Part shown: piece after piece, positions 10,615 to 55,000 of the stretch
Layout of the letters: each line of letters opens with the position of its first letter
Numbering within the stretch: position 1 is the first letter of the stretch
Source: Obrimoposthia wandeli
Taxonomy: Eukaryota
Direction: 5' to 3'
Assembly (NCBI GenBank): GCA_977020255.1
Contig: CDROCS010001534.1
Location: 434,001-498,000, forward strand
DNA: 64,000 nucleotides
Translations under genes and position numbers: made by a program
Notes under the pieces: generated by a model
Told to the model about the DNA's origin: nothing
Seen by the model: the letters and a program-made list of their open reading frames with translations, nothing else
The model's database searches: none

Positions 10615-11199
10615 CTTTTTGACAAAAAAAACGTGACATAATGAACTAACCCTGTGTATCGTATACCGCGATAAAATATCTACCAGAAATTGTATCTTAC
10701 AACTTAAATCTTGTAAAATTGTAACTATTCTTGACGTTTTAATGTATGTTGTATATTAGGAACTGTAATTATTATATTTGAAAAACCACAAAGACAATTT
10801 TTATACGTCAAAAATGTGGAAATCATTCAAACAAGATCAGAATTAGGGTAAAAAATAGGTCTGAATTTATTATAAAGCTATAAATTAATAAGGTCTCAAA
10901 AGATCCAACCCTAACACAACTCCAACTCCGATACCAGTTAGGAGAATAAAAGCAACGAATGAAGTTAGACTATTAATTTATTTCATATGTTTTTGAATTT
11001 CAATTTTAGAAACTTAGACTGGATATGGCACCGTCAGTAACCACGACAGAGAGGCTGCTAGAACCGCAATATTTGGCGAGTCAATGCAGCCAAGAGGTGC
11101 CAAAGAGTGAGCTTCAATACCTAGCGACTCCGGATAGTATGAAGATAAATTATTTTAAATTAGATAATAATTTTCATTATTCACATAGGAAGCGGACTT

Positions 11200-12190
11200 G
11201 GTGGGGAAAGTTCTGGAGGAGGCAATGCTCAAACTACCCGTGGTTAGGAAACCGCGAAGACAACGGGTGAAAACATCTACAGTTCACCAGAAGAAGGCCA
11301 AGTTGGTGAAACAGGCAAACTTGCCTGTTATTGAAGTAAATTATTTATATATTTAAATTGTATTGATGTTTTTTGTAGGAACATGCAACACTTATTGAGG
11401 AATGGCTGAGAGAGGCCAGTACAATTCCTAGGGAGGTGGAAGCAAAATGCAGTGGTACGCAAAACCAAACGCACTAAAAAGGTGAAAACCAGTCTACTCC
11501 AGCGTACCGAGATATCAATGGAGCATCAGGATAAACTTCCTTGTCATATTATTGAGGTAAATTTACAAAAAATTATTAAAGTTTATTAAATAAATATTTT
11601 AATAAATTTTATTAATGTTATTTAATGCAGGAACCAGTACAAATAACTGAGGAGACGTAGGGAGAAATTACTCCATTCCCGCAGAGACGGATGAAGCGAG
11701 CAGCGCTAGACAAAGCGCTCAAGAAAATGTACCACTGCAATGATCAATTATGCAGAGGCGGTGATTGGCCGGCAGGAGATTCTCCCATCTCCAGTTGACG
11801 ACGGGTTAACTTTATTCGAGAGGATTCCAGTCTTCCCGATCGAGATTAGTCCGCCTCCCGCCAACGACAACTGCAGGAGACTTTGCTGGCACCGGCTCCA
11901 TTGAGTATCAGCCAAAATTTTGCTAGAGCTTGGGAGACTGCTTCTCCTCGTCCAACAGCAAAAAGAAGGTCTTAAATCAAAATTTGTATGATCGAGTGGA
12001 ATCGAAAGGTTGAGATTCAAGAAAGATGGCTAGCTAAACGACAAAGGAACCTGGACTGGAATAGGAAGATGGAATTGGATAGAAAGTAACTGGCGGAAAA
12101 AAGAAGAGTGGAGAATGAGGACAATCGTCGAGCTGCAAGAAAGAGAATCCTCCAGATTAAACCTGAAGAGGGTCCTTCGTCTAAAATATA
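11200..12190 (+). pseudogene. Spliced Polinton accessory gene with repeated basic exons and a charged C-terminus
   Basis: GT-AG introns at ~11336-11379 and ~11558-11630. Exons end LPVIE and LPCHIIE, and each contains VVRK..R..VKTS. The 3' part is homologous to 43470-44560 (-). Confidence 0.5.
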
Positions 12191-52000: not shown

Positions 52001-55000
52001 TGTTTATATCGATTTTTTGCTTCTTTTTACTTTTAAATCCACTACCTCCTTGGCTTTTATTTGATTTACGTTTTCTAATCAAATTAGCAACTTCAGGTAA
52101 AACATTATCAAGTTCATCAAGCGCATGCATCTTAAAGGTTGGTATTAGTTTGTTGTCCTTAGATGAAAGGTAATCCTTTCCTAAATGCAGCCTCTTTGGA
52201 CTTTGAGTGACAATATGGTGTTTTATGTTTGATTTAATAAATGTTTTGAAAATAATTTTGATTCTCGTATTTTGTTTTTCTCCTCTTAATAATATAGATC
52301 TGACCTAATTTTTCTCTTATAAATCTGACCTAGATATTTAACAAAAACATATAGTAATTTATAAATCTAAAATCTTTCTTAAAAATAGTAGTAAAATATT
52401 CACATGAATATATTATTTGAAATCTCGTCTGCGATAAGCCGCCGGTGCCAATATGGATTCCCGTGGTCTTCTCTAATCCCCTTTGAGATTAGCGGTAAAT
52501 TTCAAAGTAAAATAAATATTGTGGGGGGGCCTCCCCCTTCGTGTGGAATGGACACACACATGCAGGAAATTTCACTTCACACACATGCATGGTTTTAAAG
52601 GACAGTGGTAGGCCCCCTGATTTTGTCTACAGAACCCTTGGGTTCCACGGAACCCATTTGAGAACCATTACATTAGACAAACTAAACGGGTAATCTAAAA
52701 TATTTGTAGAATTATTCAATAATTTAACTATATATCATTAATTCAGCCGAAATCTCACGAGAAATTGAAAGAGGAACTAATAAATCAAAAAGAGAAGGAA
52801 ATAATAAAATTACGGCAAGAAATTGGCACGTTTCGCGACCTTCTGGAAGAAGCTAAAGCTCAATTGGATGTCAAGGTTAGTTTTATGTATCTTTAGTTAT
52901 TTGGAAATAATATTACAGTTCATCATACTAAAGTTTCAAATATTATTATTTAGAAAACTATATATATTTTTATAATTGATAAAATGTTATGTAAATATTC
53001 AATTTAGTTTATTAAGATATAATTCTGAGCCAGTGCATTCGTAACTTGATAACCATGAATTGCAGTTTTATTGAGGCAAGTAATCATAAATTTATATTAT
53101 AAGTCCAAAAACACAGAGTTATTCAAATCATTTTAACAGAATGGATTAAATGCAATTTGAAAATATTTATAACACTAGTAAATACGAGAATTAGTTTGCA
53201 TCTACTCACACGAAACAAGTAATCATCCTTTTTAAGATAAAATAGGATAGGCATTCCACACAAGTCCTATACCGTTGAGAACTCACGAACTAGAGGCTTT
53301 CAAAAGAAATGAAATAACTTTAGTCTAACATATGTAATTGGCTTAAAAATTGTGAGTGCTCAAGCACATTTACGATGGATATTTTGAAAATTCAAGTTAA
53401 AAATTAAAAACGAAACTGACCATTTAATTGATTCAGAACAAAAATATAAAGGGAAAAATTTCAGTTTGTTAATATGTGAGAAACAACAAAAATATAATAG
53501 GATTATTCATTTCACCTAATTTGAATCATATTTTACCACCAATGAAGTACATAAGACGAGTGTAATTGTGATCAATAATTCACTGACACTGTGCTCAAGT
53601 CTTGTTGTTTACTTAATAGCTATAAATTGTCGTGTTCTCACAGCGATTAATCAGGTTTTTATATATTTTCCCAAACCTTCCATGAGTTCACTTTACAGCT
53701 GATTAAAGAGACTAGAAATACAAAAAAATGTATTCAATTAATTTTTTCATAACAGAATTAAAATACACAAGAAAGTTTATTGAATTGTAAATATACTTTT
53801 GAATGATATTTCACTGAGTCAATAACGTTTCTAAAATATTTGTTACTAAATTTAATTGTTTTATTAAATTTTGCACATCATAAAACTGAGATATATACTT
53901 CGTAAACATTATTTACAATTATTTAATAACATTAGTAAATAATAAGGACTCAAGTTTCCACTGTCCGGTTTTATTTGAAATTGGTAACATAAAAAGAAAT
54001 ATTAAAAATACATTAATCATATGTCAGAAATTATTTTTGGTTTTTTATAGTAAACTTTTCTAAAAAAATTAATCTATAGTAATTCTTATTATGATGCTAT
54101 AATTAGATTATTTAAACCTATCAAAGTACAAAAATATATTCATTTAAACAACGATTAACAATTTTAATGTTATAATTAAAAAATAATTAAGTGATTGTTA
54201 ATTTTTTTAAATAAAAAAATGTATTTGGATCTAAAATAGAATGAAACTGGAAAAACATTAATCATGTATACAATATTTTTGACAGTAATTATAGTGTTCA
54301 TCGATGGTAAGGTAAATACTGAGCTCGTAAAATGGACATAACTGACAATTGAATATCAAATGCAGGACAAAAACGTCCAAATTATCGTATTTGTTCCTTC
54401 TTTGTGAGTTGATTAAATCATAACTTATTTGAATTTAAAAATTGTATTCTGGTTTACAAAGAAATATAGACAACAAAAAGTTCCTCTGTCAGGGTCAACT
54501 GCGCATCTTCCAGTGGAGTGTCGGTGGTCTGTTTCCCAAGATCATGGATGTTGAGGAAAAGCTTGGCACAGGAAAACGAGCTCTGTAGGTCTAACAAATC
54601 ATCCAAAGTTCACCCAAGTAACCTTAGGAAATTAGGTGGCGACCTGGTTTTATTCAGCAGAATTTATTTCAATCATGGTTGATGTTGATTTGAACTAGGG
54701 TGGTGATCTCATTGAATCCTCATTATTCAAAGTATCTCCTAGAAACAAGTTAATGGTGGTATATCTCTACAAGCCACTGAATATGACTTCAGCTGATGCT
54801 CCTGCTACCTCACAAGCTTGACCTTTTACCATCCAGTTGAAATAATCAAACATGTGGTGACTTAAACGGTCACTACTCGATGTAATACCCAACCATTCTA
54901 GTGACCTAAGGGAAGAACCAGCAAGAATGGGCTCAAAGACTCCCAGAAAAACCATACAAATAGCTGTAGCTTCCACGTGATAATCGCGTCTGATCGCGTT

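What the first reader, a model, noticed from the sequence alone, without database searches (positions are those of the whole stretch)
11020..52618. Three defective Polintons with complementary deletions rebuild a near-complete virus genome
PolB: copy A covers the N-terminus to RIRCKWC, D starts at RIRCKWC and runs to the end, and C has both ends but lacks the middle. B/C provides ATPase, integrase and penton start; D provides capsid and the full protease. Deduced order: TIR, orphan gene (antisense), ATPase, basic/QNGG protein, integrase, penton, QGGSG protein, capsid, protease, then convergent PolB, leader, DEDD-like and accessory genes, TIR. Having capsid, penton, ATPase and protease means a virion-forming (adintovirus-like) ancestor. 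Three or four copies within 53 kb suggests local hopping or an insertion hotspot.
Basis: partly seen in the sequence, partly recalled or inferred. Interest (0 to 1): 0.7.

Follow-up and report, generated by a model that had tools for sequence, protein, structure and literature searches.

The report
Broken copies of an abundant Polinton
The three pieces are real, broken copies of one virus-like jumping element that has left thousands of copies in this genome; their apparent complementarity is likely coincidence, and two of them share damage that was likely copied between neighbours after they had landed.

Summary
A, C and D are real, decayed pieces of one Polinton/Maverick family. Their 'complementarity' means little. 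The genome holds 15,245 exact element ends and natural end-to-end copies of about 17.5 kb that show the gene order directly. A+C+D match only 75-76% of such a copy. They lack most of the penton and a 2-kb block with a TATA-binding-protein (TBP)-like gene, which has 6,713 exact hits genome-wide. This density is no hotspot. One local signal is real: C and D share 13 private changes and a frameshift found nowhere else in the genome, plus a 571-bp identical tract. Different end subtypes and a host exon between them favour copying between inverted neighbours over local hopping. Side results are more interesting than the finding: the very high copy number, ~180-bp end-only mini-elements with 6-bp target duplications, and a 38-nt intron in the TBP-like gene, shared by three lineages. 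This scan has already noted TBP-bearing Polintons in other genomes. No RNA data were available.

The parts
1..581 (+). End of a fourth copy of the same family (173-aa orphan ORF); the copy continues upstream of the window through the TBP-like gene, ATPase, integrase and penton
   Evidence: 96% to natural copies; L053 5,541-10,000 matches at 94.5%
10926..15307 (+). Copy A: accessory arm, DEDD-like gene (12,638-13,101), zinc-finger/acidic exon, PolB N-terminal part to 15,218, then an 89-bp scrap of middle PolB; no terminal repeat; most diverged copy
34969..35031 (+). Left terminal inverted repeat of C, cut short; a deletion removes the orphan/TBP block behind it
35070..35738 (+). Packaging ATPase (A32-like), one stop
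   Evidence: PF04665 E 1.9e-6 on a sister copy; 91% identity, 1 stop
35750..36246 (+). Short basic ORF and the QNGG protein (weak likeness to adenovirus protein X), broken
   Evidence: PF05829 E 0.012, below cut-off, on a sister copy
36264..37349 (+). Retrovirus-like integrase with C-terminal chromodomain, one stop
   Evidence: rve E 1.1e-6; rve E 1.5e-8 and Chromo E 2e-4 on a sister copy
37343..37906 (+). 5' part of the penton (minor capsid) gene, cut by a deletion
   Evidence: a 37%-identical relative folds like mavirus penton, E 1.5e-7
37902..39979 (-). Middle arm of C (protease 3' half, PolB 3' part), bounded by two deletion junctions; the only stretch shared with D apart from the ends
   Evidence: 96.6% to D; 13 private shared sites
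38705..39275 (.). 571-bp tract with no difference between C and D (D about 49,175-49,745); contains the shared frameshift
39956..44700 (-). PolB N-terminal part and accessory arm of C: Ser/Thr-rich and zinc-finger exons with a ~650-bp tandem duplication (40,698-41,991), DEDD-like gene (42,585-43,070), short GT-AG intron candidates
44806..44919 (-). Right terminal repeat of C with an internal palindrome; no 6-bp target duplication with the left flank
46108..46296 (+). Likely host exon between C and D; part of a phase-0, AG/GT-bounded, stop-free chain with 34,455-34,703 and 52,747-52,875
   Evidence: the spacer has no long match elsewhere among 40 scored candidates
47429..47632 (+). Terminal repeat of D (different subtype from C) and subterminal stretch, followed by a deletion of the whole accessory arm
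   Evidence: 84% to C's accessory-side end
47633..50100 (+). PolB from the RIRCKWC stretch to the end, with an endonuclease-VII-like insert; several stops and frame breaks
   Evidence: PF03175 E 5e-16, PF02945 E 1e-4
50357..50713 (-). Adenovirus-like protease, full extent but broken
   Evidence: PF00770 E 0.02-0.05, below cut-off, on sister copies
50740..51984 (-). Major capsid protein gene, broken
   Evidence: a 57%-identical relative folds as a double jelly roll, E 1.4e-15
51966..52184 (-). 3' part of the QGGSG protein gene, cut by a deletion
52183..52616 (+). Tail of the orphan ORF, subterminal stretch and a truncated terminal repeat of D
   Evidence: 77-79% to natural copies

Best explanation
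A, C and D are decayed, differently deleted copies of one Polinton family present in thousands of copies; they were likely separate insertions, their complementarity is likely chance, and the 2.08-kb arm shared by C and D was likely copied from one to the other by recombination repair after it was already damaged. Shown: common family, natural gene order, copy number, private junctions, shared private lesions, the identical tract, different end subtypes. Inferred: integrase-driven insertion of each copy (C and D into neighbouring introns of a host gene), later deletion partly at short microhomologies, loss of C's target duplication by joining the ends of two insertions or by flank loss, then at least two rounds of gene conversion or templated repair between the inverted arms 8.5 kb apart (an old one across the arm, a recent one of about 570 bp). 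The pieces cannot act alone; any movement would need proteins from other copies.
For: 15,245 exact ends, 6,713 TBP-gene and 843 PolB 34-mer hits. End-to-end copies of 17,513 and 17,431 bp with 6-bp target duplications. No deletion junction of A, C or D is spanned by any of 78 fetched loci; D's right-hand unique stretch occurs once. C and D are sisters at 99/99 support with 13 private shared sites against at most 3 in the other 104 pairs. The 34-mer over their shared frameshift occurs only at C and D. No difference in 571 bp, P about 2e-9 at the arm's mean rate. The accessory-side ends of C and D are only 84% alike. A stop-free phase-0 exon lies between them. Elsewhere, 4 of 11 neighbouring pairs are each other's best match among about 20 loci.
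Against: The comparison copies are a few dozen of thousands and were picked as best matches, so closer relatives of C or D outside the lesion could be missed. The lesion pattern spans three private sites, so any one later change would hide a third carrier. The identical tract could be an assembly or polishing artefact; I could not test it with reads. C is itself likely a chimera, so its ends do not fully exclude a common parent. PolB-bearing copies are mildly clustered genome-wide (10 neighbour gaps under 64 kb among the 100 listed, by my count, against about 4 expected).
Confidence: 0.72

Rival explanations
1. Local hopping: one already damaged parent copy was replicated by Polinton proteins from other copies and re-inserted nearby, giving C and D with different deletions.
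For: Shared private changes run across the whole arm (38,167-39,867). Deleted derivatives with clean target duplications exist (4 of 4 larger ones). Two inverted neighbour pairs elsewhere are mutual best matches.
Against: One parent should give alike ends, but C's and D's accessory-side ends are 84% alike with indels, and D's subterminal stretch is only 77-79% like other copies. The recent identical tract still needs conversion. C is not sister to the upstream copy in L053, and A is the most distant copy.
Confidence: 0.15
2. Assembly artefact: near-identical inverted arms were partly homogenised during assembly or polishing, so the C-D kinship is technical.
For: 571 bp is a size that read mis-mapping could produce; the family is extremely repetitive (about 200,000-240,000 short contigs per run lay on one 3.65-kb stretch).
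Against: C and D still differ at 72 places in the arm, and shared private sites lie well outside the identical tract.
Confidence: 0.08
3. Functional complementation or a hotspot: the pieces are kept together as a split virus genome, or the locus attracts insertions.
For: Pieces of at least six copies of this family lie within about 94 kb around the window; three exact ends in 64 kb have Poisson P = 0.037 against the genome mean.
Against: All core genes carry stops or frame breaks and about a quarter of the element is absent. 111 of 802 sliding 64-kb windows on nine other contigs also hold three or more ends (these contigs were denser than average, 1.07 against 0.72 per 64 kb).
Confidence: 0.04

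Closest known systems
Polintons/Mavericks (as summarised in PMC6431247 and PMC8097293, passages read)
   Same: Terminal inverted repeats, 6-bp target duplication, protein-primed PolB, rve integrase, ATPase, protease, major and minor capsid genes, about 17 kb, two convergent modules; most copies defective (96% in vertebrates per PMC8097293).
   Different: Copy number: at least 6,713 here, against a highest value of 287 in the vertebrate survey. End-only mini-elements of 175-201 bp. A conserved gene with a likely spliceosomal intron, whereas intact vertebrate elements were reported intronless.
Alpha adintoviruses (Starrett et al., PMC8502044, sections 3.1 and 3.2 and passages read)
   Same: PF03175-type PolB, integrase, FtsK/A32-like ATPase, adenain-like protease, hexon- and penton-like folds, a weak protein-X-like ORF.
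   Different: N-terminal OTU domain not confirmed by any tool here; PLA2X/GasderminX not tested; no free-ended or particle form shown. That paper names a TBP-like gene only in figure legends of its section on non-animal datasets; I did not see its supplementary genome maps.
Nematode and oomycete pPolB2 with an HNH insert (10.1101/2023.08.22.554363, passages read)
   Same: PolB carries an endonuclease-VII/HNH-like insert (PF02945, 25.3 bits against cut-off 23.6).
   Different: Clade placement not tested; PMC11071308 (passages) says Polinton polymerases carry diverse homing endonuclease inserts, so the insert alone shows no kinship.
Intron-bearing Maverick content: nematode cargo genes (10.1101/2022.07.12.499685) and dinoflagellate introners (PMC11957031), passages read
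   Same: Introns inside Maverick/Polinton-like elements are known.
   Different: Here the intron lies in a gene that is conserved and intronless in 59 of 60 scored relatives, at one site shared by three divergent lineages, so it looks like an old gain in the element's own gene rather than host cargo.

Membership tests
Polinton/Maverick | Terminal inverted repeats starting with AG | tested here: met
   C at both ends, D left whole and right truncated, A none
Polinton/Maverick | 6-bp target site duplication | tested here: met
   Exact in 13 of 15 two-ended copies elsewhere; absent at C itself; not testable at A and D
Polinton/Maverick | Protein-primed family B polymerase | tested here: met
   PF03175 E 6e-18 (C) and 5e-16 (D), above cut-off
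Polinton/Maverick | Retrovirus-like integrase | tested here: met
   rve E 1.1e-6 in C (just under cut-off); E 1.5e-8 above cut-off in a sister copy
Polinton/Maverick | Packaging ATPase | tested here: met
   PF04665 E 1.9e-6 above cut-off in a sister copy 91% identical to C
Polinton/Maverick | Adenovirus-like protease | tested here: inconclusive
   PF00770 E 0.02-0.05 below cut-off; PDB best hit a viral cysteine protease at E 0.57; position matches relatives
Polinton/Maverick | Double jelly-roll major capsid protein | tested here: met
   Tested on an unchanged relative 57% identical to D's pieces: pLDDT 78, Foldseek E 1.4e-15 to iridovirus, PBCV-1 and mavirus capsids; Pfam alone weak
Polinton/Maverick | Single jelly-roll penton | tested here: met
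   Tested on a relative 37% identical to C's piece: best hits mavirus penton E 1.5e-7, adenovirus penton base, TM-scores only about 0.33
Polinton/Maverick | Length of 15-25 kb | tested here: met
   17,513 and 17,431 bp end to end
Alpha adintovirus | PF03175-class PolB | tested here: met
Alpha adintovirus | N-terminal OTU-like domain in PolB | tested here: inconclusive
   No Pfam or PDB hit for the N-terminal frame; Cys and His motifs seen by eye against a recalled pattern only
Alpha adintovirus | Protein-X-type accessory genes (PLA2X, GasderminX) | tested here: inconclusive
   Adeno_PX E 0.012 below cut-off; PLA2 and gasdermin domains not found by Pfam, no profile-profile test
Alpha adintovirus | Animal host | not tested
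   A 1.35-Gb AT-rich eukaryote with spliceosomal exons; an animal is inferred, not shown
Alpha adintovirus | Free linear genomes or virions | not testable with these tools
   Only contigs of unrecorded run type were available
TATA-binding protein family (gene absent from A, C, D) | TBP core repeat | tested here: met
   PF00352 E 1.7e-11; 35 PDB TBP sequences, best E 4.7e-14

The most novel reading that the evidence does not exclude
This is a Polinton lineage that carries its own TBP-like factor, gained a spliceosomal intron in that gene long ago (same site in this family, a divergent sister family and an independent metagenome contig), spread to at least 6,700 copies in one genome and spawned roughly a thousand ~180-bp end-only mini-elements, which would show that the terminal repeats alone suffice for Polinton movement and that a capsid-bearing element can live mainly as a spliced, nuclear transposon.
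Probability: 0.5. Interest if true: 0.58.

Novelty: new member of a known kind. Interest (0 to 1): 0.33.

Why it matters
The finding as written is ordinary: broken pieces of a very common element will often look complementary. What has some value is the family. It is over 20 times more abundant than the highest count in the vertebrate Maverick survey that I read, it has end-only mini-elements that mark the smallest cis sequence for movement, and neighbouring copies exchange sequence, which distorts dating and trees of such elements. The intron-bearing TBP-like gene and the ATAAACA motif in front of ATPase and capsid genes make the open question of how Polintons switch on their virion genes testable.

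Tried and rejected
RNA evidence: no RNA holder listed. The four runs laid on the TBP block were contigs of unrecorded type with flat cover, likely the assembly's own sample; the intron joint was not among the 15 joints shown of about 800, which is no evidence either way. Splicing of the accessory arm stays untested by reads. Intron candidates in the accessory arm gave mixed conservation (for example GT 7 of 7 and AG 7 of 7 at 11,557-11,630, but GT 0 of 8 at 11,137-11,188; one candidate had no spanning copy), so they are leads only. The palindrome pattern (2,474 sites) also hits ends of larger elements and was rejected as a mini-element count. A breakpoint hotspot at RIRCKWC was rejected: no other fetched copy breaks there. 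The TBP tree grouped this family with its sister at 95/90 in one build but left them unresolved in a larger one, so a single intron gain is not shown. The 1,205-aa ORF at 24,539-28,156 found no homologue. A PDB search with middle PolB found nothing. Atlas searches gave only hypothetical proteins for the DEDD-like gene and a weak Pox_I3 lead (12% of members, score 0.89) for the 160-aa ORF. No earlier notes on this genome, by sequence, or on Polinton mini-elements. Literature searches (listings only, plus passages of two papers) showed no description of Polinton end-only mini-elements; Repbase and subscription papers were not searchable, so this is weak.
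Full report
Observation. The window is G000:C1534:434,001-498,000 in a 1.35-Gb assembly. Self-comparison shows three related pieces: A (10,926-15,307, +), C (34,969-44,919) and D (47,429-52,616). C and D share an inverted arm of 2,080 bp at 96.6%; A matches C at 74-75% over about 3.4 kb. PolB (PF03175), integrase and a weak jelly-roll hit were found in the window's own frames. A fourth piece at 1-581 belongs to the same family and continues upstream of the window.

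One family, very abundant. An exact 29-base terminal pattern occurs 15,245 times in the genome, with 0 control hits. A 34-mer from PolB occurs 843 times and one from the TBP-like gene 6,713 times; all are lower bounds on copies. In 8 of the 10 other-contig copies, A's PolB start runs straight into D's PolB. In a tree of the 507-bp stretch shared by A and C with 17 other rows (three are repeat fetches of one place), A has median identity 90.8% to the others, C 95.0%, and the others 96.2% among themselves. A is thus an older or sister copy, not another clade.

Natural gene order. Two end-to-end copies (L047/L048, 17,513 bp; L049/L050, 17,431 bp) have exact 6-bp target duplications and are themselves broken in PolB and capsid. 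They show: terminal repeat, two antisense orphan ORFs (173 and 160 aa, 29% alike), TBP-like gene, a small ORF, ATPase, basic ORF, QNGG protein, integrase, penton, QGGSG protein, capsid, protease, then convergent PolB, accessory arm, terminal repeat. A, C and D together match 75.8% and 74.9% of these two copies. Missing are 1.4-1.6 kb at the accessory end, about 635 bp of penton and QGGSG gene, and 1,998 bp with four ORFs. Every core gene piece in the window has stops or frame breaks. 'Near-complete' is therefore overstated, and nothing needs rebuilding to read the order.

Complementarity and density. None of eight deletion or duplication junctions in A, C and D is spanned by any of 78 fetched loci; a ninth apparent gap in A is shared with three older-type copies. 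Junction overlaps are about 5 and 24 nt in C, 2 nt at D's right break, none at three others. The 20-nt closeness of A's and D's breaks at RIRCKWC is not repeated in other copies. The genome mean is 0.72 exact ends per 64 kb; the window has 3 (Poisson P 0.037, before any correction for choosing the window or for ends coming in pairs). On the nine listed contigs whose length I knew (9 of 16, denser than average), 111 of 802 sliding windows hold three or more. This is no hotspot.

The real local signal. In the PolB tree C and D are sisters at 99/99 among 21 rows. Against 13 other copies they share 13 private sites spread over 38,167-39,867; the other 104 pairs share at most 3, median 0. They share a one-base frameshift in PolB, and the 34-mer over it occurs only at C and D in the whole genome, against 843 hits for a nearby control. 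They differ at 72 places in the arm but at none in 38,705-39,275 (P about 2e-9 at the mean rate). So the arm descends from one already damaged chromosomal copy. Against a single parent hopping locally: the accessory-side ends of C and D are only 84% alike, D's subterminal stretch is 77-79% like other copies, C is not sister to the upstream copy, and a stop-free phase-0 exon chain places C and D in neighbouring introns of a likely host gene. I infer separate insertions followed by conversion or templated repair between inverted arms. This is not unique: of 11 neighbour pairs taken from the first 100 hits, 4 are mutual best matches among about 20 loci (two direct at 99.7-99.9%, likely segmental duplications; two inverted at 97.8% and 95.7%), one could not be scored.

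Virion genes. An unchanged metagenome relative 57% identical to D's capsid pieces folds as a double jelly roll (pLDDT 78; Foldseek E 1.4e-15). A relative 37% identical to C's penton start matches mavirus and adenovirus pentons (E 1.5e-7, low TM-scores). The ATPase hits Pox_A32; the protease call is weak by profile. This is the usual Polinton set (PMC6431247, PMC8097293, passages; PMC8502044 sections 3.1 and 3.2). It implies an ancestor able to make particles; particles are not shown.

Side result 1: mini-elements. Among the first 100 listed ends, 7 pairs lie 175-201 bp apart. They consist of the two ends only; 5 of 7 have an exact 6-bp target duplication, one has one mismatch, one has none. 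Extrapolated, about a thousand exist (inference). Larger deleted forms of 0.8-8.2 kb have exact duplications in 4 of 4.

Side result 2: TBP-like gene with an intron. The block missing from A, C and D encodes a TBP-like protein (PF00352 E 1.7e-11; PDB E 4.7e-14). Its two halves abut exactly in an alignment with nine database relatives and are separated by a 38-nt GT-AG stretch; GT is kept in 18 of 18 and AG in 15 of 18 other copies, with indels concentrated inside. A divergent sister family just upstream of the window (L053, 51% protein identity) and a metagenome contig (L108) have a 40-nt GT-AG stretch of other sequence at the same codon position. Of 80 metagenome loci, 60 could be scored and 59 are intronless. 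Of 23 such loci of 4 kb or more, 21 carry other genes of this element. Splicing itself is inferred; no RNA holder was listed. TBP in Polinton-like elements is not new: it is named in figure legends of PMC8502044 and 10.1101/697771 (passages; supplements not seen, and their genome maps may bear on this), and this scan noted it in several other genomes. Introns in Maverick cargo and introners are also known (10.1101/2022.07.12.499685, PMC11957031, passages), while intact vertebrate Mavericks were reported intronless (PMC8097293, passages).

Side result 3: a shared upstream motif, a lead taken from earlier scan notes. ATAAACA lies within 75 nt of 7 of 11 located gene starts in one natural copy, against 4.3% of random stretches (motif chosen by eye on C). 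In the metagenome relatives it lies before 21 of 25 ATPase and 8 of 9 capsid genes but 0 of 77 TBP genes, background 3.4%. All these loci were picked by TBP, so there is no TBP-less control, and the motif also resembles a forkhead site (recalled). A link to the element's TBP is a hypothesis.

Verdict. A new member of a known kind. The headline claim is an expected by-product of a very large, decaying Polinton family; the C-D kinship is real but best read as copying between neighbours. Interest 0.33, carried mostly by the family's copy number, mini-elements and intron-bearing TBP-like gene.

Noticed in passing
window 1,087-7,725: Decayed Gypsy-type retroelement (RT at 5,734-6,177, integrase end at 7,366-7,725) preceded on the same strand by a Monjiviricetes-type fusion glycoprotein gene (PF24664, E to 2.8e-15), so the env-like gene lies upstream of pol; no LTR pair found. 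It starts where the fourth Polinton piece ends.
   Followed up: no
window 9,878-10,614: RING-finger ORF (PF13639 E 9e-9) overlapping a Ser/Thr/Pro-rich ORF just before copy A; not part of the natural Polinton copies. 9,500-9,792 matches L028 at 74% next to another Polinton family's integrase.
   Followed up: partly
window 24,539-28,156: Open frame of 1,205 aa with coiled-coil ends and no homologue among 7,998 scored candidates; likely a large exon of the host gene whose later introns hold C and D.
   Followed up: partly
L052 3,627-8,400 and L053 3,051-4,171 (just upstream of the window): A second, divergent Polinton family (65-72% DNA identity in core genes) with the same gene order and its own intron-bearing TBP-like gene, abutting a terminal repeat of the main family.
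   Followed up: partly
L042/L043 (G000:C4:80,006-91,214): An 11.2-kb element with the orphan-TBP-ATPase end at both sides in inverted orientation and an exact 6-bp target duplication: a fold-back derivative with gene-bearing long repeats.
   Followed up: partly
L028 6,448-6,609: Two terminal repeats joined back to back with no spacer, followed by sequence of the divergent family; may be a concatemer junction or an insertion into an end.
   Followed up: no
window 52,620-52,670: D's right terminal repeat is cut by a short stretch that looks like the end of a hAT-type miniature transposon (likeness recalled, not tested).
   Followed up: no
window 8,400-9,030; 15,399-15,449 and 18,489-18,539; 56,094-57,014: A mariner-like remnant (read by eye), an LTR-like fragment that truncates copy A, and a perfect 261-bp direct repeat 660 bp apart.
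   Followed up: no
L072 222-719: A TBP-bearing Polinton relative carries an ORF that reads like a ubiquitin-conjugating (E2) enzyme and two penton-like genes in tandem (E2 label by eye).
   Followed up: no
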